NCBI GenBank assembly: GCA_938041325.1
Contig: CALIAG010000387.1
Location: 1-13,084, forward strand
Length of the DNA stretch: 13,084 bases
Direction: 5' to 3'
Source of the DNA: an uncultured Saprospiraceae bacterium
GTDB taxonomy: Bacteria; Bacteroidota; Bacteroidia; Chitinophagales; Saprospiraceae
In this document: piece after piece, positions 345-12,882 of the stretch
How the letters are laid out: the number at the start of each line of letters is the position of its first letter
Numbering within the stretch: the stretch's first letter is position 1
Position numbers and translations under genes: made by a program
The notes under the pieces: generated by a model
The model's database searches: none
The model's input: the letters and a program-made list of their open reading frames with translations, nothing else
Told to the model about the DNA's origin: nothing

Positions 345-487
345 GACGCTTCGGGGTAGCTTTGGACAAGAAAAAATAAAACGAAACGATAAGCTTTAGC
401 TTTGTGCGCAGACCTGCCTCGCTGGTAGGCAGGCGGAAACGAAAAGTTTCCTTACTTCCGCACTAAGTTTAGCTCGAGCGTTGGGCA
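345..487 (+). repeat. Copy 1 of a ~143-bp structured intergenic repeat family; the core is a 3-stem module: closing helix, CCTGCCT..AGGCAGG hairpin, GGAAAC..GTTTCC hairpin
   Basis: About 85-90 percent identical to 4388-4530 in the same orientation (direct alignment of gacgcttcggggtagctttggacaag...gtgcgcagacctgcct...aggcaggcggaaacgaaaagtttcc...). Hairpins: CCCCGA/TCGGGG at 341-356, CCTGCCT/AGGCAGG at 414-433, GGAAAC/GTTTCC at 435-451, and a closing helix GTGCG(403-407)/CGCAC. It ends 47 nt before the ATG at 534. Confidence 0.75.
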
Positions 488-3656: not shown

Positions 3657-4283
3657 ATGAACAATGAAGCGCAACATTCAAATGATATAGGTCTTGATAA
3701 ATTGATTTCAAAAGCTAAAAACAATTCAGCTAAAGACATGTATGACACCAAAAAAGAACCAAGAAAATCAATGGGAGTCTATTTGAAAAATCAAAATAGA
3801 CTCATAATGAATTCAATTGCGATCGCAGATAAAAAAGCAGCAATTTTGATTAGAATAAACACTGCAATAATATCTGCTTTAATTGTATTTGAAAGTTACT
3901 TTGAAAATACATCTTTTAATAATCAAATTATACCAATACTAATTATTGGGCTTTCTATTTCATTGATTTTTGCCATTCTCGCAGCAAAACCTTTCAGCTA
4001 TATTATGTATAAAGTTTTTAATAAAATCATCAAAAAGAAATATCCAAATTTAGAAGAAAATAACTTCATGATTTTTGAAGTACCAGAATTTGAGAAGTAC
4101 GAATTATCAATGCAAAAGGTTTTAAAGAGTCAAAACTTACAAATTGGTAACCTTACTAGATTTAATTATTTTATGAGCAAAAGCATCTCTAGGAATTACT
4201 TACAACTAGAAATTGCTTACACTGTTTTTTTAATTACATTCTTAATAGTTGCTGTTTTCTATATAAGTTCAAACTACTTTTAG
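3657..4283 (+). CDS. Hypothetical membrane protein with three predicted TM helices (208 aa); function unknown
   Basis: ATG start. The hydrophilic N-terminus of about 60 aa is followed by two adjacent hydrophobic helices (AAILIRINTAIISALIVF; IIPILIIGLSISLIFAILAA) and a third at the C-terminus (AYTVFLITFLIVAVFYI). No recognizable catalytic motif. Confidence 0.6.
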   Translation: MNNEAQHSNDIGLDKLISKAKNNSAKDMYDTKKEPRKSMGVYLKNQNRLIMNSIAIADKKAAILIRINTAIISALIVFESYFENTSFNNQIIPILIIGLSISLIFAILAAKPFSYIMYKVFNKIIKKKYPNLEENNFMIFEVPEFEKYELSMQKVLKSQNLQIGNLTRFNYFMSKSISRNYLQLEIAYTVFLITFLIVAVFYISSNYF

Positions 4284-4387
4284 CAAGCAACAAGCGGCAA
4301 AACATTTGTTGTGAACTGTAATTAAGATGGTGGAACCGACCCACCAAAGTCGTTTTATAGGAGAAGGTGTTAAACCACCTAAAGGAC

Positions 4388-4530
4388 ACTTCGGAGTAGC
4401 TTTGGACAAAAAAAGAAAAAACAAAACAATAAGCCTTAGCTTCGTGCGCAGACCTGCCTTGCCGGCAGGCAGGCGGAAACAAAAAAGTTTCCTTGCCTCC
4501 ACACTGCGCTTAGCCGAACTGTTAGGTGAC
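4388..4530 (+). repeat. Copy 2 of the ~143-bp structured repeat family, same orientation as copy 1
   Basis: Aligns with 345-487. The near-perfect palindrome cctgccttgccggcaggcagg at 4453-4473 is followed by GGAAAC-aaaaaa-GTTTCC. The closing helix GCGCAG (4445-4450) / CTGCGC (4507-4512) is shifted by a few nt relative to copy 1. It ends 12 nt before the ATG at 4543. Confidence 0.75.
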
Positions 4531-5054: not shown

Positions 5055-5077
5055 TATATTTGCGTATCATATACGCA
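5055..5077 (+). promoter_or_regulatory. Bacteroidetes-type -7 promoter box (TAtaTTTG, 5055-5062) overlapping a perfect palindrome TGCGTAT-cat-ATACGCA (5061-5077), immediately upstream of the nrtR-like gene
   Basis: TAnnTTTG matches the established Bacteroidetes sigma-A -7 consensus. The 7+3+7 palindrome spans the predicted TSS about 5 nt upstream of the ATG at 5082. This is a candidate (auto)repressor operator. Confidence 0.45.
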
Positions 5078-5081
5078 TATA

Positions 5082-5756
5082 ATGAAAAATACCATTCAAC
5101 TTACTGTAGATGCCGTCGTGTTTGGATACGAGTCGGGAAATATTTCCGTGCTACTAGTGAAACGTAAATACGAACCATATAAAAACGCATGGGCATTGCC
5201 AGGAGGCTTTGTGCTAGAAAATGAAAATCTTGAACAAGCCGTGGAAAGAGAGCTCTCTGAAGAAACCGGTGTAAAGATCAACTATCTCGAACAGTTGTAT
5301 ACGTTTGGTGATGTAGCACGTGATCCTAGGGGCAGGGTCGTATCGATAGCCTATTTTGGGTTGGTTAAACCAAATGCGTTTAAACTGCATGCATCGACCG
5401 ATGCCCAGAAGGCCGAGTGGTTCAATATCGCTCAACTACCAAAACTGGCCTTTGACCATAAAAAGATTGTACAAATTGCCATTGAAAGGCTTCAGGGAAA
5501 GATTACCTATGAACCTATTGGCTTTGAATTACTAGATAAAAGGTTTCCTTTTTCCGATTTAGAGAAATTGTATACAACCTTGTTGGGCAGGGAAATAGAT
5601 CGGCGAAATTTCAAAAAGAAAATTACAAGTCTAAAGGTATTAGACGAATTAGACGAGAAGGTTTCTAAAGGGCGAGGCAGGCCTGGCAGTCTTTTTAGCT
5701 TCAATCAAAAGCGTTATTTCCAACTTAAGAAAGCGGGAATCATCTTCGAAATATAA
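5082..5756 (+). CDS. nrtR: NrtR-like Nudix-related transcriptional regulator (N-terminal Nudix fold plus C-terminal winged helix), 224 aa
   Basis: Nudix box GGFVLENENLEQAVERELSEETGV (the GX5EX7REUXEEXGU pattern). The C-terminal ~80 aa are basic and wHTH-like (KKKITSLKVLDELDEKVSKGRGRPGSLFSF). It is positioned directly upstream of nadV-prs, as in described NrtR regulons (established knowledge). Confidence 0.75.
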   Translation: MKNTIQLTVDAVVFGYESGNISVLLVKRKYEPYKNAWALPGGFVLENENLEQAVERELSEETGVKINYLEQLYTFGDVARDPRGRVVSIAYFGLVKPNAFKLHASTDAQKAEWFNIAQLPKLAFDHKKIVQIAIERLQGKITYEPIGFELLDKRFPFSDLEKLYTTLLGREIDRRNFKKKITSLKVLDELDEKVSKGRGRPGSLFSFNQKRYFQLKKAGIIFEI

Positions 5757-5796
5757 CCCTTTTTAGTCGTGTCAAAATTTAATTTGCGTAAAAAAA

Positions 5797-5855
5797 ACAC
5801 AAAATAGGTTGTGTGTTGAAAAAGCGCATATTATATTTGTGTCATAATTACACAA
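5797..5855 (+). promoter_or_regulatory. Candidate promoter and operators of the NAD-salvage operon: -7 box TAtaTTTG (5832-5839) overlapping inverted repeat TTGTGT-N7-ACACAA (5837-5855); a second everted ACACAA-N8-TTGTGT site lies at 5797-5816
   Basis: Palindromes seen directly. They are placed in the 221-bp gap between the nrtR-like gene and the nadV-like gene. TAnnTTTG is the Bacteroidetes -7 consensus. Confidence 0.45.
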
Positions 5856-5977
5856 ATAAATGATATTTGAAAGAGAGACTAAATGTGGGAATTGAATTTT
5901 AAATATTACGAGATTAATAGCGTTATGTTTCAATATTAGAGGCCCATATTTCCAATAATAAATAAAAATCGAAAATT

Positions 5978-7432
5978 ATGAACGGATTACTACTCACCGA
6001 TGGATATAAGACCGGACACCACCAGCAATACCCAAAAGGAACAGAAGAAGTATATTCTAACTGGACACCTAGAAGTAACAAATACGCACCAAAAGGCTGT
6101 GACAAAGTACTTTCCTTTGGACAACAATATGTGATGCAGTGGTTGCATGATTATTTTGAGGATAATTTCTTTTCAAAACCAAAAGCATCCGTTTGCGATG
6201 AAATAAAAACCGAATTATCATTATACCTTAATGCGGACTATGATGTGACACATTTCGAAGATTTGCATGACCTGGGTTATTTGCCCATTCGAGTGAAGTC
6301 TCTAGACGAAGGGGTCGAGGTTCCCATTCGCGTGCCGATGCTAACGGTAGTAAACACCGATCCTAAATTTTACTGGGTCACCAATTTTCTTGAAACTATA
6401 TTATCGACCATGTTGTGGTTGCCCATGACCTCGGCTTCCATTGCATTGACCTATAAACGTATTTTCAAAAGATGGGCCTTAAAAACAGATGCCGAAAATA
6501 TAGCTTTTATTGATTTTCAAGGGCACGATTTTTCAATGAGGGGCATGGGTGGTCTTCAAAGTGCAGTAGCTTCGGGCATGGGTCATGCGGCCGTATTTTT
6601 AGGATCCGATACGTTGCCGGTGATTCACGGACTTCGAAAGTATTATGAAGCGGAAGGCTTTGTAGTTGGATCTGTGAACGCTACCGAGCACTCCGTAATG
6701 TGTGCTGGCACCAAAGATGATGAAATAGGTACGTTTCGACAGTTGATGAAAACCTACCCCACGGGAATTTTATCTGTAGTGAGTGATACCTGGGATTTAT
6801 GGAAAGTGCTAACGGAGTACCTTCCAACATTAAAAGAAGAAGTATTGGCCCGCGATGGTAAACTGGTGATACGCCCCGATAGCGGTGACCCTGTTGATAT
6901 TATCTGTGGAACAAATACTCAAATGAGTAAGGGCACTCCGGTTGAAAAAGGAGTTGTCGAATTACTTTGGGATGTTTTTGGGGGAACAACGAACAAGGAG
7001 GGCTTTAAAGTATTAGACCCACATATTGGAGCTATTTATGGTGACAGTATCACCACAACACGTGCTGCGGATATTTGTCAACGATTGCATGACAAAGGTT
7101 TTGCCACAACCAATGTGGTATTGGGTATTGGTTCGTTTACCTATCAATTTAATACCAGGGATACCTTCGGGTTTGCTATGAAAGCTACTTCGGTAGTAGT
7201 TGACGGCGCGCGCAGGGAAATTTTCAAAGACCCTATTACAGATGACGGCGTAAAAAAATCTGCAAAAGGATTAATTCGGGTCGATAAAGTAGATGGCGAT
7301 TATGTGTTGGTTGATGAAGTAACGGAAGCAGAAGAACAAAATGGGGAATTAAAGGTGATTTTCGAAGACGGCAAGTTCGTACATAAAACCGCTATAGAAG
7401 AAATTAGGGCTCGAATAAACGAACGGGTTTAG
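5978..7432 (+). CDS. nadV: Nicotinamide phosphoribosyltransferase family protein (NadV/Nampt; possibly the Namat-type NAD-reconstitution enzyme), 484 aa
   Basis: The N-terminus LLLTDGYKTGHHQQYP and the overall length are typical of NadV/NAMPT. It is followed by a prs homolog as in nadV-prs operons. Confidence 0.9.
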   Translation: MNGLLLTDGYKTGHHQQYPKGTEEVYSNWTPRSNKYAPKGCDKVLSFGQQYVMQWLHDYFEDNFFSKPKASVCDEIKTELSLYLNADYDVTHFEDLHDLGYLPIRVKSLDEGVEVPIRVPMLTVVNTDPKFYWVTNFLETILSTMLWLPMTSASIALTYKRIFKRWALKTDAENIAFIDFQGHDFSMRGMGGLQSAVASGMGHAAVFLGSDTLPVIHGLRKYYEAEGFVVGSVNATEHSVMCAGTKDDEIGTFRQLMKTYPTGILSVVSDTWDLWKVLTEYLPTLKEEVLARDGKLVIRPDSGDPVDIICGTNTQMSKGTPVEKGVVELLWDVFGGTTNKEGFKVLDPHIGAIYGDSITTTRAADICQRLHDKGFATTNVVLGIGSFTYQFNTRDTFGFAMKATSVVVDGARREIFKDPITDDGVKKSAKGLIRVDKVDGDYVLVDEVTEAEEQNGELKVIFEDGKFVHKTAIEEIRARINERV

Positions 7433-7454
7433 TGTAGCATTTAAAATTTTCAAT

Positions 7455-8213
7455 ATGAAATACGAAATAAAAAAATTTAGGGACGGACAGGTAGCTGCAA
7501 AAATTTTGGAAGAAGGCGATCTTGAAGTCCGCATTCGCGGGAATAGTTATGAAGACCTGTTTGCCATCGCAGCTATAAAGGACGCCTGGGATGCTGAGCA
7601 TAGTATGAACAAGACGGCTACGGCACGTTTAACGATATATTGCCTTATAGGGCAGCGATCCGATAGGCGTTTTAATGCAAAAGAATCTTTTGACTTAAAA
7701 GTGATAGCAAACTTCATTAATTCGATGGGTTTTGATAAGGTAGAAATTCTACATCCGCATAGTCCCATCTCCTTGGCTTTGATAGAAAACTCTAGTAAGT
7801 TATCCCATTTTCAATACGTTCAAAAAACCTTTGAAGCTATTGGAAACCCTGTTTTGGTAAGTCCGGATGCCGGGGCTTACAAAACCACCCATGAAATCGC
7901 TGAAAAGTTGGGAGCTGATTTGGTCCCCTCAAATAAAGTTAGGGTCGATGGCGCACCACAAATAAGTATTCAGGGAGATGTAAAGGATAAAGATTGTTTG
8001 ATTGTTGATGACTTGGCAGATGGGGGTCGAACCTTCAAGTTTTTGGCAGCAGCCTTAAAAGAACAAGGCGCGACAAGGGTGTATTTGTATGTGACGCATG
8101 CCCAATTCAATTATGGTTTTGATGAGTTGAAAGAGACCATTGACCATGTGTATTGCACCAATAGTTACAAGGATATTGATGATGAATTTGTGACGCAATA
8201 TAAAATTGTATAA
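7455..8213 (+). CDS. prs: Short ribose-phosphate pyrophosphokinase (Prs) homolog (possibly Adps-like), 252 aa
   Basis: Aligns to Prs along its length: FRDGQVAAKILEEGDLEV vs Prs FSDGEVSVQINENVRG; VLVSPDAGAYKTTHEIAEKLG vs [20 protein letters not shown]; the PRPP-binding loop DCLIVDDLADGGRTFKFLAAALKEQGATRVYLYVTHAQF vs [39 protein letters not shown]. It lacks about 25 N-terminal residues relative to canonical Prs. Confidence 0.85.
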   Translation: MKYEIKKFRDGQVAAKILEEGDLEVRIRGNSYEDLFAIAAIKDAWDAEHSMNKTATARLTIYCLIGQRSDRRFNAKESFDLKVIANFINSMGFDKVEILHPHSPISLALIENSSKLSHFQYVQKTFEAIGNPVLVSPDAGAYKTTHEIAEKLGADLVPSNKVRVDGAPQISIQGDVKDKDCLIVDDLADGGRTFKFLAAALKEQGATRVYLYVTHAQFNYGFDELKETIDHVYCTNSYKDIDDEFVTQYKIV

Positions 8214-8334
8214 AGTTAGTAAGGTGCCAGAAGAACTTGTTGTGAGTGATGGGGATGGTGTAAGTTTCCGGATACGACGTATCACAAGTTCAAAGTTTGG
8301 AAGAATTGATTGCCGATCTTAAAAAGAAAATGAG

Positions 8335-8889
8335 ATGAAATATTCACTGGAATTGGTCAAACAACAATTTGATTCGAATGAAAATATGAAATTCTTGTTC
8401 TTCTGGGGACATACCCCTGCCAAGGACGGTTCGGTGACCAAAAGCTGTTTCAGTCAATGGTGGAAAGCATCTTTTAGTAAAGAAGGTGAAACCTACAAAA
8501 CTGCAGAACATTTTATGATGGCCGAAAAGGCGCGTTTGTTTCAAGCTTTGGAAATAAGAGATGAAATTATAGCCTGTGAACATCCCGCAGCAGCTAAAAA
8601 ATTAGGGCGCAAGGTGAAAGGTTTTGATGCTGATATTTGGGACGAACATAAGTACGCCATCGTAAAAGAAGCAAATATGCTAAAGTTTTCGCAGCATGAC
8701 GCTTTAAAAGACTTTTTAGTAAACACAGGAAGTAGAATTCTGGTCGAGGCCAGTCCGGTAGATAACATCTGGGGGATTGGTTTGGCGCAAGACGACCCAA
8801 AGGCCCAAAACCCTCATCTATGGCAAGGTGAAAACTTACTTGGTTTTGCGTTGATGGAAGTTCGTGATCAATTAATTAAGAATCTATGA
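8335..8889 (+). CDS. NADAR-domain protein (YbiA/DUF1768 family, NAD and ADP-ribose related), 184 aa
   Basis: Family hallmarks: FLFFWGH..SQW, AEHFMMAEKARLF, LGRKVKGFD..W, ILVEASPVDNIWGIGL. The stop overlaps the next start (ATGA at 8886-8889). Confidence 0.85.
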   Translation: MKYSLELVKQQFDSNENMKFLFFWGHTPAKDGSVTKSCFSQWWKASFSKEGETYKTAEHFMMAEKARLFQALEIRDEIIACEHPAAAKKLGRKVKGFDADIWDEHKYAIVKEANMLKFSQHDALKDFLVNTGSRILVEASPVDNIWGIGLAQDDPKAQNPHLWQGENLLGFALMEVRDQLIKNL

Positions 8890-9422
8890 AAAAATATGCG
8901 GCGCTCTTCGGAGGTTCTGGAAACGATACGAATTCCAAAGAGTATCTTGAAACAGTTGAAATAGGTTCTTTTTTGACCAAACAAGGTTATATAGTAAAGA
9001 ACGGTGGATATGGCGGCATGATGGAAGCAGTTTCAAAAGGAACGACCGAATCCGGTGGCAGCGCAATTGGAGTTACATGCAAACAAGTGGGTCCTGCCGA
9101 GGGAAACCAGTATTTATCAGAGACGATAGTTACTGAGAAATTGTATGACAGACTCAAATTGTTGATCGAAAACACTACGGTTTTTATTGTACAGCGAGGT
9201 GGCATTGGAACACTTTCCGAGGTTTTTTTGGCTTTGGATATTATTCGGAAAGAGCCCAAATTATGGCAGCCTAAATTATATTTTGTGGGATACATTTGGA
9301 ATGATGTAGTGGCTTCTTTGAAAGCAACTTTAATTCCGGAGTACGAGCATGATTTATTTCAAATCGTAAAAGATTCCGAAGAACTATATCAACGAATATG
9401 TATAGATTTTCCTAAAAACTAA
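8886..9422 (+). CDS. LOG-family (TIGR00730, lonely-guy-type) Rossmann-fold nucleotide N-glycosidase-like protein, 178 aa
   Basis: Motifs GGYGGMMEA (GGGxGxMxA) and RGGIGTLSE (PGGxGTxxE) characteristic of LOG/SLOG proteins. Translationally coupled to the NADAR gene. Confidence 0.85.
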   Translation: MKKYAALFGGSGNDTNSKEYLETVEIGSFLTKQGYIVKNGGYGGMMEAVSKGTTESGGSAIGVTCKQVGPAEGNQYLSETIVTEKLYDRLKLLIENTTVFIVQRGGIGTLSEVFLALDIIRKEPKLWQPKLYFVGYIWNDVVASLKATLIPEYEHDLFQIVKDSEELYQRICIDFPKN

Positions 9423-9424
9423 AA

Positions 9425-9450
9425 AATGCGCTAGCTTTCACCAGCGCATT
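9425..9450 (-). terminator. Hairpin terminator between convergent genes; U-tract on the minus strand, so primarily terminating the SPFH gene
   Basis: aatgcgct-agctttcacc-agcgcatt (8-bp stem) preceded on the plus strand by aaaaaa (i.e. followed by UUUUUU on the minus strand). The SPFH stop is at 9458. Confidence 0.6.
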
Positions 9451-9457
9451 CACAAAT

Positions 9458-10905: not shown

Positions 10906-10936
10906 GGAGATCAGTTTTAAAAGATGATCGGCTTTA

Positions 10937-10981
10937 GGCTACATTATGAGTGTAGTGCTCTACCAACTGAGCTAAAGGGCC
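10937..10981 (-). pseudogene. Orphan 5' fragment of a tRNA with anticodon CAT (Met/Ile2-type): acceptor, D-arm and anticodon arm only
   Basis: Minus strand reads GGCCCTT-TA-GCTC-AGTTGGTA-GAGC-A-CTACA-CTCATAA-TGTAG-CC, then continues TAAAGCCGATCATC with no T-arm. Confidence 0.7.
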
Positions 10982-11400: not shown

Positions 11401-11404
11401 TTAG

Positions 11405-11477
11405 TAGGAGTAGCAAGACTCGAACTCGCATTTCTAGGTTCGTAGCCCAGCGTTCTATCCAATTGAACTATACTCCT
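11405..11477 (-). tRNA. tRNA-Arg (anticodon ACG), 73 nt, canonical
   Basis: Minus strand AGGAGTA-TA-GTTC-AATTGGATA-GAAC-G-CTGGG-CTACGAA-CCTAG-AAAT-GCGAG-TTCGAGT-CTTGC-TACTCCT-A. All four stems pair. Confidence 0.9.
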
Positions 11478-11478
11478 A

Positions 11479-11555
11479 TGGTGGAACAGACAGGACTCGA
11501 ACCTGTATCGTCGAATCTTCAATCCGCCGCATTGACCATCTTTGCTACTGTTCCC
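11479..11555 (-). tRNA. tRNA-Phe (anticodon GAA)-like with an encoded CCA and an extra 5' G; the D and anticodon stems each carry one mismatch
   Basis: Minus strand (G)GGAACAG-TA-GCAA-AGATGGTCA-ATGC-G-GCGGA-TTGAAGA-TTCGA-CGAT-ACAGG-TTCGAGT-CCTGT-CTGTTCC-A-CCA. Only 1 nt separates it from tRNA-Arg. Confidence 0.7.
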
Positions 11556-11558
11556 TCT

Positions 11559-11634
11559 TGGGGTGTACTCCGGGACTTGAACCCTGTTCCTCCCATTCAC
11601 AGCGGGGCGCTTTACCAGATAAGCTAGAGACACC
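11559..11634 (-). tRNA. tRNA-His (anticodon GTG)-like with G-1:C73 and an encoded CCA, but mismatches in the lower acceptor stem and the T-stem (possibly degenerate)
   Basis: Minus strand G(-1)-GTGTCTC-TA-GCTT-ATCTGGTA-AAGC-G-CCCCG-CTGTGAA-TGGGA-GGAA-CAGGG-TTCAAGT-CCCGG-AGTACAC-C-CCA. Mismatches at C5/T68, C7/A66 and A50/G64. The D-arm is perfect and G-1:C73 is the established His identity element. Confidence 0.6.
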
Positions 11635-11646
11635 ATTTTAGAGATT

Positions 11647-11795
11647 TTTTTGAAAGGTGTCGATTATTTTTCTACGTCCCTTTTTGCGCCCCACGTTGTT
11701 AAAATTTTCTAGCGTAGCTATGGCTATGCTGGAAAATTTTGCCTAGTTGCGCACCAAAAGTGAACTGTACAAATTCTAATCACACCTTTCAAAAC
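11647..11795. mobile_element. MITE-like ~150-bp element bounded by ~19-bp terminal inverted repeats (ttttgaaaggtgtcgatt ... aatcacacctttcaaaa), inserted between tRNA-His and tRNA-Gln
   Basis: Left arm 11647-11666 and right arm 11776-11795 are reverse complements (18/19 with a 1-nt indel). The interior is AT-rich with no ORF. It is the only large spacer in an otherwise tightly packed array. Confidence 0.45.
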
Positions 11796-11803
11796 AGTCT
11801 CTG

Positions 11804-11875
11804 TAAACCCGAAAGGATTTGAACCTTTACAACAAGAATCAAAATCTTGTATGCTAACCGTTACATCACGGGTCT
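11804..11875 (-). tRNA. tRNA-Gln (anticodon TTG), 72 nt
   Basis: Minus strand AGACCCG-TG-ATGT-AACGGTTA-GCAT-A-CAAGA-TTTTGAT-TCTTG-TTGT-AAAGG-TTCAAAT-CCTTT-CGGGTTT-A. Confidence 0.85.
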
Positions 11876-11900
11876 ATTTGCAAGCCTAACAAGATTTGAA

Positions 11901-11920
11901 CCTGCCTGCCGGCAGGCAGG
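11901..11920. repeat. Perfect 20-bp palindrome CCTGCCTGCC/GGCAGGCAGG, the same hairpin as in repeat copies 1 and 2, sitting inside a 130-bp non-tRNA spacer (11881-12010)
   Basis: acctgcctgccggcaggcagg is near-identical to 4452-4473 and related to 413-433. The neighbouring hairpin ttattt-c-aaataa is at 11965-11977. Confidence 0.6.
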
Positions 11921-12031
11921 CTCATATCTCAGGGTTAGAAATGCTTTTCTGCATTCACGAACTCCTTATTTCAAATAAAATGAGCATGAGCTAAATCCTG
12001 CGTGCTATCCATTACACCATAAGCTTAATTG

Positions 12032-12148
12032 TACCCCACCCAAGATTCGAACTTGGACTTGAAGGATTTTAAGTCCAGAACTTCGTTCGGTGCCTTCGCA
12101 GAAACTGTGTTTCTGCTCGTCAATCTCTGCCAGTTGGGCTAGTGGGGC
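12032..12148 (-). ncRNA. 117-nt tRNA-like element: perfect tRNA 5' and 3' ends (7-bp acceptor, canonical T-arm) enclosing about 45 extra nt that form three hairpins; possibly an interrupted tRNA or a novel tRNA-like RNA
   Basis: Minus strand GCCCCAC-TA-GCCCAACTGGCAGAGATTGACGA-[GCAGAAAC-aca-GTTTCTGC]-GAAGGCA-[CCGAAC-gaa-GTTCtGG]-ACTTAAAATCCTTCAAGT-CCAAG-TTCGAAT-CTTGG-GTGGGGT-A. The acceptor is GCCCCAC/GTGGGGT. The segment CTGGA-CTTAAAA-TCCTT resembles a weak anticodon arm (TAA). Confidence 0.5.
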
Positions 12149-12153
12149 ATTTG

Positions 12154-12226
12154 TACAGGGAGAGAGATTCAAACTCTCAGAGTACTGGTTCTAAGCCAGC
12201 TGCGTTTGCCATTTCGCCATCCCTGC
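12154..12226 (-). tRNA. Noncanonical tRNA with Leu anticodon TAG but a class-I (short variable arm) structure and A73
   Basis: Minus strand GCAGGGA-TG-GCG-AAATGGCAAA-CGC-A-GCTGG-CTTAGAA-CCAGT-ACTCT-GAGAG-TTTGAAT-CTCTC-TCCCTGT-A. All stems pair. The variable region is 5 nt, whereas bacterial tRNA-Leu normally has a long variable arm. Confidence 0.65.
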
Positions 12227-12230
12227 ATTG

Positions 12231-12303
12231 CTGAGGCATTAGGATTCGAACCTAAAACTTCCGTGTTAACAGCACGGTACTCTACCTATTGAGTTATACC
12301 TCA
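12231..12303 (-). tRNA. tRNA-Asn (anticodon GTT), 73 nt, canonical
   Basis: Minus strand TGAGGTA-TA-ACTC-AATAGGTA-GAGT-A-CCGTG-CTGTTAA-CACGG-AAGTT-TTAGG-TTCGAAT-CCTAA-TGCCTCA-G. Confidence 0.9.
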
Positions 12304-12308
12304 CTTTG

Positions 12309-12380
12309 TACTCTGTAGGGGAATCGAACCCCTATTTCCTGATAGAAAGTCAGGCGTACTAACCGTTATACGAACAGAGC
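12309..12380 (-). tRNA. tRNA-Glu (anticodon TTC), 72 nt
   Basis: Minus strand GCTCTGT-TC-GTAT-AACGGTTA-GTAC-G-CCTGA-CTTTCTA-TCAGG-AAAT-AGGGG-TTCGATT-CCCCT-ACAGAGT-A. Confidence 0.9.
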
Positions 12381-12384
12381 AAAT

Positions 12385-12483
12385 GTCTGAGAAGCAAGAT
12401 TGACTTCGTCTTTCTTGCAACTACTCCTTGTTAATCAAATTCGAGTAAACTTGATTTGATTAAGTCGTCTGAGAAGCAAGATT
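12385..12483. repeat. 17-bp direct repeat gtctgagaagcaagatt (12385-12401 and 12467-12483); the second copy is the 3' end of tRNA-Pro, the first an orphan copy 82 bp away (att-like duplication)
   Basis: The exact 17-mer occurs twice. The spacer between them contains the inverted repeat aatcaaat...atttgatt (12434-12461). Confidence 0.65.
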
Positions 12484-12539
12484 CGAACTTGCGACCTTCC
12501 GCGTCCAAGGCGGGTAAACAACCACCGTTATCTTCCCAG
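12468..12539 (-). tRNA. tRNA-Pro (anticodon TGG) with a C1-G72 start (as in E. coli tRNA-Pro) but G8 and an irregular D-arm
   Basis: Minus strand CTGGGAA-GA-TAAC-GGTGGTTG-TTTA-CCCGC-CTTGGAC-GCGGA-AGGTC-GCAAG-TTCGAAT-CTTGC-TTCTCAG-A. The anticodon loop is CTTGGAC. The T-arm and acceptor pair, but the D-stem is weak. Confidence 0.65.
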
Positions 12540-12544
12540 TTTTG

Positions 12545-12617
12545 CAGTACCGACGGGACTCGAACCCGTACCTTCCCGATAGACAGTCGGGCGCTCTAGC
12601 CTTTGAACTACGGTACT
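12545..12617 (-). tRNA. tRNA-Asp (anticodon GTC), 73 nt
   Basis: Minus strand AGTACCG-TA-GTTC-AAAGGCTA-GAGC-G-CCCGA-CTGTCTA-TCGGG-AAGGT-ACGGG-TTCGAGT-CCCGT-CGGTACT-G. Confidence 0.9.
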
Positions 12618-12620
12618 TTG

Positions 12621-12703
12621 TGGAAGTAGTAGGACTTGAACCTACATGTCATTTCTGAACCTGATTTACAGTCAGGCGAGCCAGCCAATTGCTCAATACT
12701 TCC
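12621..12703 (-). tRNA. tRNA-Tyr (anticodon GTA), 83 nt, class II with a long variable arm
   Basis: Minus strand GGAAGTA-TT-GAGC-AATTGGCTG-GCTC-G-CCTGA-CTGTAAA-TCAGG-TTCAGAAATGACAT-GTAGG-TTCAAGT-CCTAC-TACTTCC-A. Confidence 0.9.
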
Positions 12704-12711
12704 ATAATTTT

Positions 12712-12787
12712 TGGAGACAAGGATGAGATTCGAACTCATAAAAAACGGATTTGCAGTCCGCTACCTTAACCATTCAGCCACCTTGTC
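12712..12787 (-). tRNA. tRNA-Cys (anticodon GCA) with an encoded CCA; the D-stem is imperfect
   Basis: Minus strand GACAAGG-TG-GCTG-AATGGTTA-AGGT-A-GCGGA-CTGCAAA-TCCGT-TTTTT-ATGAG-TTCGAAT-CTCAT-CCTTGTC-T-CCA. The anticodon arm is identical in pattern to E. coli tRNA-Cys. Confidence 0.8.
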
Positions 12788-12795
12788 CATTTTTG

Positions 12796-12882
12796 CGGAG
12801 GGCAAAGGAATTGAACCTTCACTACCTTATGGTAGACTCGCTTAGCAGGCGAGCGCAACAAACCAGTATTTGCCTACCCTCC
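12796..12882 (-). tRNA. tRNA-Ser (anticodon GCT), 87 nt, class II
   Basis: Minus strand GGAGGGT-AG-GCAA-ATACTGGTTTG-TTGC-G-CTCGC-CTGCTAA-GCGAG-TCTACCATAAGGTAGT-GAAGG-TTCAATT-CCTTT-GCCCTCC-G. The variable-arm hairpin is CTACC-ata-GGTAG. Confidence 0.9.

What the first reader, a model, noticed from the sequence alone, without database searches (positions are those of the whole stretch)
5055..9422. NrtR-controlled operon combining a NadV/Namat-type enzyme, a short Prs/Adps-type enzyme, NADAR and LOG: a candidate ADP-ribose-to-NAD reconstitution module with two extra nucleotide-processing enzymes
Seen in sequence: five co-directional genes encode a Nudix-wHTH regulator, a NadV-family protein, a Prs homolog lacking about 25 N-terminal residues, a NADAR domain protein and a LOG-family protein. 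The last four have overlapping or short junctions, and there are operator-like palindromes.

Established knowledge: NrtR regulators sense ADP-ribose and commonly control nadV-prs operons. As I recall, a phage NAD-reconstitution pathway was described in 2024 in which a Prs homolog (Adps) makes ADPR-pyrophosphate and a Nampt homolog (Namat) condenses it with nicotinamide to form NAD, countering NAD-depleting immune effectors. NADAR enzymes hydrolyse ADP-ribose adducts, for example reversing DarT guanine ADP-ribosylation. LOG/SLOG enzymes cleave N-glycosidic bonds of nucleotides.

Inference: the combination (ADPR sensor + ADPR-to-NAD enzymes + ADPR-adduct hydrolase + nucleotide N-glycosidase) would form a coherent ADPR-triggered NAD repair / anti-depletion unit. 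I have not seen this four-enzyme arrangement described as a system.
Basis: partly seen in the sequence, partly recalled or inferred. Interest (0 to 1): 0.75.

Follow-up and report, generated by a model that had tools for sequence, protein, structure and literature searches.

The report
ADP-ribose-switched NAD rebuilding operon, Flavobacteriia
A marine flavobacterium carries a chromosomal operon, apparently switched on by the NAD breakdown product ADP-ribose, that most likely rebuilds NAD from ADP-ribose and nicotinamide with the two-enzyme route first found in phages. It also carries two optional helper glycosidases drawn from a fast-changing pool of ADP-ribose-processing genes.

Summary
Five co-directional genes at 5082-9422 encode NrtR, a Nampt-family protein, a short Prs-like protein, a NADAR protein and a LOG/SLOG protein.

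- **Regulation:** three 21-bp palindromes (TTTGYGT-N7-ACRCAAA) lie in front of nrtR and the operon. This layout recurs in about 49 related loci. The proximal site overlaps the promoter -7 box.
- **Core enzymes:** the 484-aa protein carries the published Namat signature (GSFTYQFNTRD). The 252-aa protein carries the Adps hallmarks: lost C-terminal helices, DGGRTF loop and adenine-contacting Phe residues. The core is therefore most likely a bacterial NARP1 pathway (ADPR + ATP to ADPR-PP, then + nicotinamide to NAD) under an ADPR-sensing repressor.
- **Helpers:** NADAR and LOG are not a fixed part. Only 10 of 55 related Flavobacteriia operons have either, and 5 have both. They belong to a rapidly turning-over accessory cassette that also includes DrHyd-like, ARH, Macro, KptA, metallophosphatase, HAD-like and unknown families. 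The window keeps the scar of a deleted DrHyd-like gene.
- **Linkage:** NADAR linkage to NAD reconstitution is strong, with several gene positions, phage loci and all four orthologues sampled. LOG linkage is narrower.

nrtR-prs-nadV clusters, bacterial NARP1 and feeder enzymes inside NARP1 operons are already published, so I rate this a new variant of a known kind. No enzyme activity was tested.

The parts
5059..5079 (.). NrtR operator in front of nrtR (TTTGCGTATCATATACGCATA). It ends 3 nt before the ATG, and a -7-like box TATATTTG (5055-5062) overlaps its left half.
   Evidence: One mismatch to TTTGYGT-N7-ACRCAAA. An equivalent site lies about 23 nt before nrtR in 42 related loci.
5082..5756 (+). 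nrtR: Nudix domain plus NrtR winged-helix repressor, with an intact Nudix box (GFVLENENLEQAVERELSEETGV).
   Evidence: Pfam NUDIX and NrtR_WHD. NF050029 scores 154.6 bits, below its cut-off of 400. The Nudix box was read from the translation.
5783..5803 (.). Distal NrtR operator O1 (TTTGCGTAAAAAAAACACAAA), just upstream of the -33 TTG at 5809-5811.
   Evidence: Zero mismatches. Tandem partner sites 53-54 bp apart occur in 49 loci.
5836..5856 (.). Proximal NrtR operator O2 (TTTGTGTCATAATTACACAAA). Its left half overlaps the -7 box TATATTTG (5832-5839).
   Evidence: Zero mismatches. The TAnnTTTG overlap is seen in 48 of 49 loci, and a TTG lies 15-23 nt upstream in 38 of 49.
5978..7432 (+). Namat-type nicotinamide ADP-ribose transferase (Nampt family).
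   Evidence: 528 bits to SPbetaL1 Namat 9W5X/9W5W against 204-230 bits for bona fide Nampts. SCH motif GSFTYQFNTRD, SCL K-Y and the catalytic residues are kept. 45-54% identical to ICP1, FADO and Felixounavirus Namat.
7455..8213 (+). Adps-type ADP-ribose pyrophosphokinase (PRPS-like, short at both ends).
   Evidence: TIGR01251 scores 104.9 bits, below its cut-off of 113. That matches validated Adps (96-119) and not E. coli Prs (423). The C-terminal tail is lost, and the DGGRTF loop and F8/R68/F73/K161/F194/F196 match ICP1 Adps residues.
8227..8332 (+). Scar of a deleted DrHyd-like (PF15891) gene in the adps-nadar spacer.
   Evidence: tblastn of the L001 gene: residues 130-151 match 8267-8332 (50%, E 0.002) and residues 7-18 match 8227-8262. 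The DNA synteny break lies at w8241/w8266 versus L001 8788/9142.
8335..8889 (+). NADAR (YbiA-type) ADP-ribosyl N-glycosidase; accessory gene.
   Evidence: Pfam NADAR 187 bits, TIGR02464 173 bits. Best solved relative is 8BAU NADAR. Orthologues sit in NAD-reconstitution operons.
8886..9422 (+). LOG/SLOG-family phosphoribohydrolase-like protein; accessory gene, start overlaps the nadar stop by 4 nt.
   Evidence: Pfam LDcluster4 and Lysine_decarbox. RGGIGTLSE aligns to the PGGxGTxxE motif of the solved LOG 5ZI9. Orthologues at 60% identity or more all lie in NrtR-NARP1 operons.
9424..9451 (.). 12-bp-stem hairpin between log and the convergent SPFH gene; likely shared terminator.
   Evidence: Terminator scan; sequence read. 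The T-run is on the minus strand only.

Best explanation
This is a chromosomal, NrtR-repressed NAD reconstitution operon of a marine flavobacterium.

**Regulation.** At rest, NrtR dimers occupy two tandem 21-bp operators. These bracket the -33 element and cover the -7 box of the operon promoter. A third operator sits on nrtR's own promoter. When NAD is cleaved, ADP-ribose accumulates, binds the Nudix domain and releases NrtR. This step is inferred from characterised NrtR proteins.

**Core pathway.** The 252-aa Adps-type enzyme transfers pyrophosphate from ATP to ADPR, giving ADPR-PP plus AMP. The 484-aa Namat-type enzyme then joins ADPR-PP to nicotinamide to give NAD. The inducer is therefore also the substrate.

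**Accessory genes.** NADAR and LOG are co-transcribed members of a variable cassette of ADPR-processing genes.
- NADAR most likely frees ADPR from N-glycosidically linked ADP-ribosyl adducts or derivatives, so that they feed the pathway.
- LOG most likely hydrolyses an N-ribosyl 5'-phosphate side product. Candidates are the AMP made by Adps, which inhibits Adps, or NMN, which would yield nicotinamide.

**Shown here:** gene content, signature residues, operator and promoter architecture, and gene-neighbourhood linkage.

**Inferred:** every enzymatic activity, the ADPR response and the substrates of NADAR and LOG.
For: **Operators**
- Three matches against 0.02 expected by chance.
- The same three-site layout occurs in 42-49 loci. 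The -7 box overlaps the proximal site in 48 of 49 loci.
- The sites fit the published NrtR rule, GT-N7-AC in a 21-bp palindrome, and ADPR releases NrtR in vitro.
- Where accessory genes lie between nrtR and namat, the operators precede them.

**Namat**
- 528 bits to the SPbetaL1 Namat structures against 204-230 bits to bona fide Nampts.
- Exact fit to GSX-Phi-X-Phi-X-Phi-TRD with aromatic X. K-Y sits at the SCL stacking position. F189, D215, R306 and the catalytic His are kept.

**Adps**
- It fails the Prs models to the same degree as validated Adps.
- It lacks the C-terminal module that the structure paper calls a defining signature.
- All ICP1 Adps ligand and catalytic residues are matched. 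Three Phe residues (F73, F194, F196) correspond to V, L and K in E. coli Prs.
- Its 137 nearest cluster representatives of 220 aa or more measure 220-440 aa (nearly all under 300), and 133 of them carry the Adps-type Phe.
- No NMN adenylyltransferase was seen among the annotated genes of the related operons.

**NADAR**
- It is linked at three different positions in Flavobacteriia operons.
- It is present in 6 of 80 viral NARP1 loci, lying between adps and namat in 5 of them.
- All four orthologues sampled are linked to NAD reconstitution genes.

**LOG**
- It occurs in 7 operons of 55, plus one divergent NrtR-NARP1 operon from a metagenome.
- The Arg and Glu of the LOG motif align with those of a solved LOG.

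**Other**
- AMP inhibits Adps.
- RyDEP is a published precedent for a feeder enzyme inside a NARP1 operon.
Against: - No activity was measured.
- Pairwise scores for the Adps-like protein are ambiguous: 108 bits to ICP1 and Felixounavirus Adps, but 82 to E. coli Prs and only 56-82 to Gram-positive phage Adps.
- phrog_619 does not separate Adps from Prs.
- Only one canonical Prs was available as an outgroup.
- Namat enzymes keep PRPP-dependent Nampt activity in vitro.
- NCBI's nicotinate/nicotinamide PRTase model is passed (539 bits against a cut-off of 405).
- A solved homologue without the Namat motif (9KE8, GAQTYQRNTRD) still scores 465 bits, so score alone is not decisive.
- NADAR and LOG are absent from most related operons, and LOG is absent from the 80 viral NARP1 loci.
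- The intact Nudix box in NrtR could mean that it destroys ADPR rather than only sensing it.
- Co-transcription across the 121-nt adps-nadar spacer is inferred only.
Confidence: 0.65

Rival explanations
1. Classical reading (Rodionov 2008): the pair is a nicotinamide phosphoribosyltransferase (NadV) with a dedicated PRPP synthetase paralogue. It would salvage nicotinamide through NMN, and NMN would be adenylated by an enzyme encoded elsewhere.
For: - The nrtR-prs-nadV annotation in PMC2330246.
- NF006629 is passed at 539 bits.
- Namat retains PRPP-dependent activity in vitro.
- The 252-aa protein keeps somewhat more similarity to E. coli Prs (82 bits) than phage Adps do (35-60 bits).
- Residues shared by Prs and Adps are all present.
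Against: - The Namat selectivity-clamp signature is complete.
- The Adps-specific loop, the Phe residues and the C-terminal loss are present.
- The protein fails every Prs model cut-off.
- No NMN adenylyltransferase was seen among the annotated genes of the related operons.
- A bacterial pair of this kind was shown to make NAD from ADPR.
Confidence: 0.12
2. The NARP1 core is as described, but NADAR and LOG are passengers with unrelated jobs. Examples would be YbiA-type clean-up of riboflavin intermediates and cytokinin-type or general nucleotide phosphoribohydrolase activity. They would have landed in a recombination-prone spot.
For: - TIGR02464 names the NADAR a riboflavin-intermediate N-glycosidase (173 bits).
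- Only 10 of 55 operons carry either gene.
- The spot turns over quickly: a deletion scar and different gene sets in the closest relatives.
- LOG is absent from the phage NARP1 loci.
Against: - NADAR was recruited at three positions in Flavobacteriia, and it lies in viral NARP1 loci.
- 4 of 4 sampled NADAR orthologues lie in NAD-reconstitution operons, including a PnuC-NadR one.
- All LOG orthologues at 60% identity or more are inside NrtR-NARP1 operons.
- The rest of the cassette is ADPR-themed: ARH, Macro, KptA, PARG, SIR2.
Confidence: 0.15
3. The cluster is a phage- or mobile-element-borne counter-defence cassette (NARP1 as in phages) sitting in a prophage or island, not a host function.
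For: - NARP1 is mainly a phage pathway.
- The upstream flank is not syntenic with relatives, and a 101-nt direct repeat (about 87% identical copies) brackets the neighbouring 4-kb block.
Against: - No phage genes are present in the window.
- The downstream SPFH gene and tRNA array are syntenic with contigs of 0.76-1.26 Mb.
- The core is conserved across many Flavobacteriia genera at one regulated locus with its own repressor.
- Published surveys place bacterial NARP1 mostly outside mobile elements.
Confidence: 0.03

Closest known systems
Phage NARP1 (Adps + Namat; Osterman et al. 2024; structures PMC12774641 and PMC13586617)
   Same: The two core enzymes carry the same diagnostic residues and are adjacent. 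The predicted chemistry is the same: ADPR + ATP to ADPR-PP, then + nicotinamide to NAD.
   Different: The locus is chromosomal. The gene order is namat-adps. It sits under an NrtR repressor with promoter-occluding operators. The Adps N-terminus is shorter (7 residues before the Phe, against 13-25). Extra NADAR and LOG genes are present.
NrtR-regulated prs-nadV operons (Shewanella, Acinetobacter, Cytophaga hutchinsonii; Rodionov et al. 2008, PMC2330246)
   Same: The same three gene families are present. Tandem 21-bp GT-N7-AC operators lie between nrtR and the operon. ADPR is the expected anti-repressor.
   Different: There the pair was read as PRPP synthetase plus Nampt. Here the sequence signatures point to Adps/Namat. 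The Nudix box is intact here, whereas it is degenerate in the two proteins that were assayed. An accessory cassette is present.
Chromosomal bacterial NARP1 of Paenibacillus foliorum (PMC12774641)
   Same: A bacterial, non-phage Adps-Namat pair. That pair was shown to make NAD from ADPR and nicotinamide.
   Different: A different phylum. No NrtR or accessory genes were reported there. The authors left the physiological role open.
RyDEP inside a mycobacteriophage NARP1 operon (PMC13232231)
   Same: An extra glycosidase gene is embedded in a NARP1 operon, and its product, ADPR, feeds Adps-Namat.
   Different: RyDEP is a RyR-domain O-glycosidase for 2'/3'cADPR. Here the extras are NADAR and LOG, which are N-glycosidase families, and their substrates are unknown.
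NADAR/YbiA hydrolases (DarT1-NADAR, YarT-YbiA; PMC11543638, PMC11125620) and the Macro-NADAR-SLOG-Nudix network described for viruses (PMC9503650)
   Same: The same domain family, of the YbiA type. The literature already predicts that NADAR and SLOG process N-glycosidic ADPR derivatives and notes NADAR next to NAD salvage genes in phages.
   Different: No ADP-ribosyltransferase toxin partner is present here. The partner is a NAD reconstitution pathway under ADPR control.

Membership tests
NrtR regulators | N-terminal Nudix domain fused to a C-terminal NrtR-type winged helix | tested here: met
   Pfam NUDIX 76.2 bits and NrtR_WHD 74.1 bits
NrtR regulators | 21-bp palindromic operators with a GT-N7-AC core upstream of NAD genes | tested here: met
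   Three sites against 0.02 expected. They are conserved in 42-49 loci. The rule comes from PMC2330246.
NrtR regulators | NCBIfam equivalog NF050029 cut-off | tested here: not met
   154.6 bits against a cut-off of 400. This is a distant member of the family, not of that narrow equivalog.
NrtR regulators | DNA binding relieved by ADP-ribose | not testable with these tools
   Needs EMSA with and without ADPR
Namat (NARP1 ligase) | Nampt-like catalytic core (F189, D215, R306, catalytic His) | tested here: met
   The aligned residues are identical to 9W5X.
Namat (NARP1 ligase) | SCH signature GSX-Phi-X-Phi-X-Phi-TRD with aromatic X | tested here: met
   GSFTYQFNTRD
Namat (NARP1 ligase) | SCL loop supplying a stacking residue (Arg, or Lys/Tyr followed by the stacker) | tested here: met
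   K-Y is aligned to R40-V41 of SPbetaL1 Namat
Namat (NARP1 ligase) | Adps homologue encoded next to it | tested here: met
   22-nt junction. The pair is adjacent or in one operon in 51 of 55 loci.
Namat (NARP1 ligase) | Preference for ADPR-PP over PRPP | not testable with these tools
   Needs an enzyme assay
Adps (NARP1 kinase) | Loss of the C-terminal alpha11-alpha12 module of PRPS | tested here: met
   15 residues follow the TNS motif, against 13-31 in Adps and 41 in E. coli Prs.
Adps (NARP1 kinase) | Remodelled PP loop and donor lid (DGGRT-F type, not DTGGT-L) | tested here: met
   VDDLADGGRTFKF. F is present in 133 of 137 nearest representatives, and E. coli Prs has L.
Adps (NARP1 kinase) | ADPR-contacting F18/R87/F92 and catalytic K185 equivalents | tested here: met
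   F8, R68, F73 and K161. E. coli Prs has V101 at the F92 position.
Adps (NARP1 kinase) | Placement in the Adps clade, separate from Prs | tested here: inconclusive
   The NJ tree puts it with validated Adps, but only one Prs outgroup was available. Pairwise bit scores are ambiguous, and phrog_619 does not discriminate.
Adps (NARP1 kinase) | ADPR + ATP to ADPR-PP + AMP | not testable with these tools
   Needs an LC-MS assay
Canonical class I Prs | Passes the ribP_PPkin/PRK Prs models | tested here: not met
   TIGR01251 scores 104.9 against a cut-off of 113. All equivalogs score 90 or less against cut-offs of 296 or more. E. coli Prs scores 423-533.
NADAR / YbiA family | Full-length NADAR domain above the curated cut-offs | tested here: met
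   PF08719 187.3/35.1 over positions 1-162 of 163. TIGR02464 173.4/73.7.
NADAR / YbiA family | Hydrolysis of guanine- or other base-linked ADP-ribose | not testable with these tools
   Needs an assay on ADP-ribosylated oligonucleotides and small ADPR derivatives
LOG / SLOG family | SLOG/LOG domain above the Pfam cut-offs, with the PGGxGTxxE motif and upstream Arg | tested here: met
   LDcluster4 64.7/26.3 and Lysine_decarbox 53/27. RGGIGTLSE and the Arg of DRL align to 5ZI9. The first Pro is replaced by Arg.
LOG / SLOG family | Cytokinin-type LOG equivalog and subfamily models | tested here: not met
   TIGR00725 69.7/106.9, TIGR00730 68.1/96.35, CtkRMPhLog 41.6/300. I do not file it as a cytokinin LOG.
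Phage anti-defence NARP1 | Encoded on a phage or mobile element | tested here: not met
   Chromosomal synteny with large contigs, and no phage genes

The most novel reading that the evidence does not exclude
The NrtR-NARP1 operons of Flavobacteriia would be general recycling centres for ADP-ribose derivatives. The swappable genes are NADAR, LOG, DrHyd-like, HAD-like, Macro/PARG, ARH, KptA with a metallophosphatase, and unnamed families of about 330, 138, 158 and 409 aa plus DUF4291. Each would convert a different NAD-derived product into ADPR or nicotinamide for NAD resynthesis. Candidate products are base-linked ADP-ribose, cyclic ADPR isomers, ADPR 1''-2'' cyclic phosphate from KptA, AMP and NMN. 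In that reading the LOG here has a new, non-cytokinin substrate, and the operon also quenches ADPR-based signals or toxins in the host itself.
Probability: 0.25. Interest if true: 0.75.

Novelty: new variant of a known kind. Interest (0 to 1): 0.5.

Why it matters
The 2026 Namat structure paper leaves open why bacteria keep chromosomal NARP1. Here the pathway sits behind a repressor of the family known to be released by ADP-ribose, so the substrate would switch on its own recycling. This also explains the 2008 puzzle of why a 'Prs' paralogue is co-regulated with NadV.

The variable cassette around the core is partly shared with phage NARP1 loci (DrHyd-like, HAD-like, Macro, NADAR). It gives a short list of candidate enzymes, some from unnamed families, that may feed ADPR derivatives into NAD synthesis in the way RyDEP does.

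The window itself is a reduced version of that system.

Tried and rejected
- **phrog_619 as evidence for Adps.** Rejected after a control: E. coli Prs scores 193 bits against 188 for the window protein.
- **Pairwise BLAST or NJ placement of the Adps-like protein.** Not decisive, because Adps proteins are as far from each other as from Prs and only one Prs outgroup was available.
- **Raw score to the Namat structure as a classifier.** Weakened by 9KE8, which scores 465 bits without the Namat motif. A literature search for 9KE8 found nothing relevant.
- **The 121-nt adps-nadar spacer as an internal promoter or terminator.** No consensus site was found. It turned out to be a gene scar.
- **Rfam on the long 5' leader and the whole window.** Only tRNAs were found.
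- **de Souza and Aravind 2012, which named NADAR.** Not held. How far it anticipated these neighbourhoods rests on my memory only.
- **Source organism.** Not recovered. The best relatives are uncultured Flavobacteriaceae and Maribacter.
- **The best 'phage' NADAR hit.** It is a mislabelled Acinetobacter chromosome.
- **The unnamed 330-aa accessory family.** No Pfam, NCBIfam, PHROG or PDB sequence match.

Full report
**1. Observation**

The five co-directional ORFs exist as described: 5082-5756, 5978-7432, 7455-8213, 8335-8889 and 8886-9422.

- Pfam assigns Nudix plus the NrtR winged helix, NAPRTase plus NAMPT_N, Pribosyltran/Pribosyl_synth, NADAR, and SLOG cluster 4 plus the LOG ('Lysine_decarbox') domain. 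All are above the curated cut-offs.
- NCBIfam gives the same families.
- Junctions are 221 nt, 22 nt, 121 nt and a 4-nt overlap.
- A simple scan finds no credible + strand terminator inside the cluster. It finds a 12-bp-stem hairpin at 9424-9451 between log and the convergent SPFH gene.

**2. Regulation**

Three were found against 0.02 expected from 200 shuffles.
- I fetched 55 loci from species-representative genomes with the 252-aa protein. All are marine Flavobacteriia or close relatives, at 67-92% identity.
- In 49 of them two such sites lie 53-54 bp apart in front of the first structural gene. In 42, a third, weaker site lies about 23 nt before the nrtR start.
- The left half of the proximal site overlaps TAnnTTTG in 48 of 49 loci. 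A TTG lies 15-23 nt upstream, between the two sites, in 38 of 49.
- From my own knowledge, TTG and TAnnTTTG are the -33 and -7 elements of Bacteroidetes promoters. On that basis the two operators bracket and cover the promoter.
- The motif obeys the published rule for NrtR sites: a 21-bp palindrome with a GT-N7-AC core. Tandem sites before prs-nadV were shown by EMSA in Shewanella, and ADPR released the protein (PMC2330246).
- The Nudix box of this NrtR is intact (GFVLENENLEQAVERELSEETGV). In that paper an intact box correlated with ADPR pyrophosphatase activity.
- That NrtR here responds to ADPR is inferred, not shown.

**3. The 484-aa protein**

- Its best solved relatives are 9W5X and 9W5W at 528 bits. 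These are the SPbetaL1 Namat structures. Bona fide Nampts score lower: Xanthomonas about 220-230 bits and the vertebrate enzymes about 204-210.
- Score alone is not enough. 9KE8, which has GAQTYQRNTRD at the critical place, still scores 465 bits.
- The structure paper defines a Namat-specific signature, GSX-Phi-X-Phi-X-Phi-TRD with aromatic X, that stacks on the adenine of ADPR-PP. It also defines a loop residue: Arg, or Lys/Tyr followed by the stacking residue.
- The window protein reads GSFTYQFNTRD and has K-Y at the loop position. It keeps F189, D215, R306 and the catalytic His.
- It is 50, 54 and 45% identical to the Namat of ICP1, FADO and a Felixounavirus.

**4. The 252-aa protein**

- A control changed my first impression. 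The PHROG family it hits (188 bits) is hit equally well by E. coli Prs (193 bits), so that result says nothing.
- NCBI's Prs model TIGR01251 does discriminate. E. coli Prs scores 423 bits. Validated Adps of ICP1, FADO and a Felixounavirus score 98, 96.5 and 119. The window protein scores 105, under the cut-off of 113.
- The Adps structure paper names loss of the C-terminal alpha11-alpha12 module as a defining signature, and lists the ligand residues.
- In an alignment with 137 representatives of its nearest sequence clusters, the window protein has a 15-residue tail after the TNS motif. Adps have 13-31 and Prs has 41.
- It has the DGGRTF-type loop. Phe is present in 133 of the 137 representatives, and E. 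coli Prs has Leu.
- It has equivalents of every ICP1 residue listed: F8, R68, F73, H102, D138, K161, D185, D186, D189, T193, F194 and F196. E. coli Prs differs at V101, L229 and K231.
- Pairwise scores are ambiguous: 108 bits to the Gram-negative phage Adps, 82 to E. coli Prs and 56-82 to Gram-positive phage Adps. I had only one canonical Prs as outgroup, so clade membership is probable rather than proven.
- None of the annotated genes in the related operons is an NMN adenylyltransferase, which a Nampt route would need.

**5. NADAR and LOG, and the surroundings**

The core nrtR-namat-adps is nearly universal in the 55 loci. NADAR or LOG is in the operon in 10, and both are present in 5.

Thirty-seven operons carry at least one gene from a recurrent accessory pool:

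| Accessory family | Loci (of 55) |
|---|---|
| Nucleoside 2-deoxyribosyltransferase-like (PF15891) | 20 |
| About 330 aa, no database match | 12 |
| 129-aa HAD-like | 11 |
| NADAR | 8 |
| LOG | 7 |
| ADP-ribosylglycohydrolase | 6 |
| KptA/Tpt1 | 4 |
| Metallophosphatase, 2OG oxygenase, Macro and others | fewer |

- Where such genes lie between nrtR and namat, the operators precede them.
- The closest relatives each have a different set:
  - DrHyd-NADAR-LOG(-KptA) in L001, L002, L003 and L005
  - LOG alone in L006
  - SPFH-like, NAD-kinase-like and ARH genes in the operon of L052, with NADAR just beyond it at the contig end
- In the window, the 121-nt spacer between adps and nadar retains the first roughly 30 nt and last roughly 70 nt of the DrHyd-like gene. 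The four-gene arrangement therefore arose by deletion.
- Downstream, the SPFH gene and a tRNA array are syntenic with contigs of 0.76-1.26 Mb, so the locus is chromosomal.

**6. Strength of the linkage**

*NADAR*
- It occupies three different positions relative to the core in Flavobacteriia.
- In 80 viral NARP1 loci from IMG/VR, homologues of the same families lie beside or between adps and namat: DrHyd-like 27, HAD-like 19, Macro 16, NADAR 6, metallophosphatase 2. LOG, ARH and KptA were not found.
- I sampled four NADAR orthologues at 61-66% identity, and all sit in NAD-reconstitution operons:
  - Three lie in large clusters that begin with adps (Kordia, Aquimarina, Flavobacterium oreochromis).
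    - nrtR precedes adps in Kordia and Aquimarina.
    - The clusters run to namat in Aquimarina and F. oreochromis. The Kordia locus ends at a SIR2 gene.
    - They contain ARH, Macro, PARG, KptA, 2OG oxygenase, metallophosphatase, a metallo-beta-lactamase-fold protein, DUF4291, SIR2 and unnamed proteins.
  - One sits next to PnuC-NadR in Paenibacillus.
- In the Aquimarina locus (L149) and the metagenome locus L142, the same operator motif precedes both adps and namat.

*LOG*
- The evidence is narrower. All orthologues at 60% identity or more lie in NrtR-NARP1 operons: seven genomes plus one divergent metagenome operon with KptA and the metallophosphatase.
- Homologues at 47% identity or less are not linked. 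LOG is rare in phage genomes.
- Its Arg and the GGxGTxxE motif align with those of a solved LOG. It fails all NCBI LOG subfamily cut-offs, so I do not call it a cytokinin LOG.

**7. Mechanism**

I think the most likely reading is an ADPR-induced, NrtR-repressed NARP1 pathway with optional feeder or clean-up enzymes.

- NADAR enzymes remove base-linked ADP-ribose (PMC11125620). They have also been predicted to act on small N-glycosidic ADPR derivatives (PMC9503650). A feeder role like that shown for RyDEP is plausible.
- For LOG I can only offer candidates:
  - AMP, which the Adps reaction makes and which inhibits Adps to about 35% residual activity at 0.5 mM
  - NMN, which would give nicotinamide
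  - an ADPR derivative connected with KptA
- These substrate proposals are inference.

**8. Comparison and novelty**

Already published:
- nrtR-prs-nadV clusters, including Cytophaga
- chromosomal NARP1 in bacteria, with one pair assayed
- the idea of a feeder enzyme inside a NARP1 operon
- the Macro-NADAR-SLOG-Nudix network, and NADAR next to NAD salvage genes in phages

No paper in the searchable library links NrtR with NARP1 explicitly. I could not read the 2012 paper that named NADAR, which may show related neighbourhoods.

What seems new:
- the explicit equation of an NrtR operon with NARP1 on residue evidence
- the promoter-occluding operator layout in Flavobacteriia
- the fast-changing accessory cassette shared in part with phage NARP1 loci
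- the LOG association

I rate it a new variant of a known kind, of moderate interest. The window itself is a reduced example.

Noticed in passing
window 11404-12882 (minus strand); also 10929-10981 and 12470-12537: An array of 11 tRNA genes (Arg, Phe, His, Gln, Leu, Asn, Glu, Asp, Tyr, Cys, Ser) lies within 1.5 kb. Two further borderline Rfam tRNA hits were not called by ARAGORN. Parts of the array are syntenic with a 1.26-Mb Flavobacteriaceae contig (L006).
   Followed up: partly
window 345-445 and 4385-4485: A 101-nt direct repeat, with copies about 87% identical, brackets the 4-kb block that encodes the ankyrin, AraC, PEBP and membrane proteins. It contains a GC-rich hairpin. The second copy gives a sub-threshold Rfam hit to a group II intron D1-D4 fragment (28.6 bits against 36). 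It also inflates the DUF2200 ORF with an about 80-residue false N-terminus. A related stretch occurs in L052.
   Followed up: partly
window 3657-4283: A 208-aa multi-pass membrane protein has weak, sub-threshold matches to Pycsar TM effectors (Pfam 21.8 bits against 27.2; PADLOC about 26 bits). No cyclase gene is nearby.
   Followed up: no
window 5082-5756: The Nudix box of this NrtR is fully intact, unlike the two NrtR proteins assayed in 2008. It may therefore hydrolyse ADPR as well as sense it, which would compete with Adps for the same molecule.
   Followed up: partly
window 8227-8332: The adps-nadar spacer is the scar of a deleted nucleoside 2-deoxyribosyltransferase-like gene. That gene is intact in L001, L002, L003 and L005.
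   Followed up: yes
L148 (Kordia), L149 (Aquimarina), L151 (Flavobacterium oreochromis), L050, L142: These are very large ADPR-themed operons that begin with adps. nrtR lies just upstream in L142, L148 and L149, and they run to namat in all but L148, whose locus ends first. They hold up to ten genes between the core genes: ARH (up to three copies), Macro, microbial PARG, NADAR, KptA, 2OG oxygenase, metallophosphatase, a metallo-beta-lactamase-fold protein, DUF4291, SIR2, and unnamed proteins of about 138, 158, 330 and 409 aa. In KptA-containing operons, LOG, Macro and the 330-aa family tended to replace one another, but the sample is small.
   Followed up: partly
L062-L141 (IMG/VR viral contigs): In phage NARP1 loci, a 129-aa HAD-like protein (19 of 80), a DrHyd-like protein (27 of 80) and a Macro protein (16 of 80) often sit between or beside adps and namat. 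I did not find these companions discussed in the NARP1 papers I read.
   Followed up: partly
L150 (Paenibacillus cellulositrophicus): A NADAR 61% identical to the window's sits directly after PnuC and a NadR-like gene. That pair is the gene combination described as NARP3 in phages.
   Followed up: no
L060 (CAKLQH020000014.1, 'Acinetobacter phage MD-2021a'): This record in the phage collection carries thrS, infC, rpmI, rplT, pheS and pheT. It is evidently bacterial chromosome, so its NADAR hit is not a phage gene.
   Followed up: yes
window 5857-5977: The operon leader after the proximal operator is about 120 nt here and in L001-L004 and L006, against about 31-37 nt in most relatives. There is no Rfam match. 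In L052 two extra genes occupy this position, so it may be another insertion or deletion scar.
   Followed up: partly
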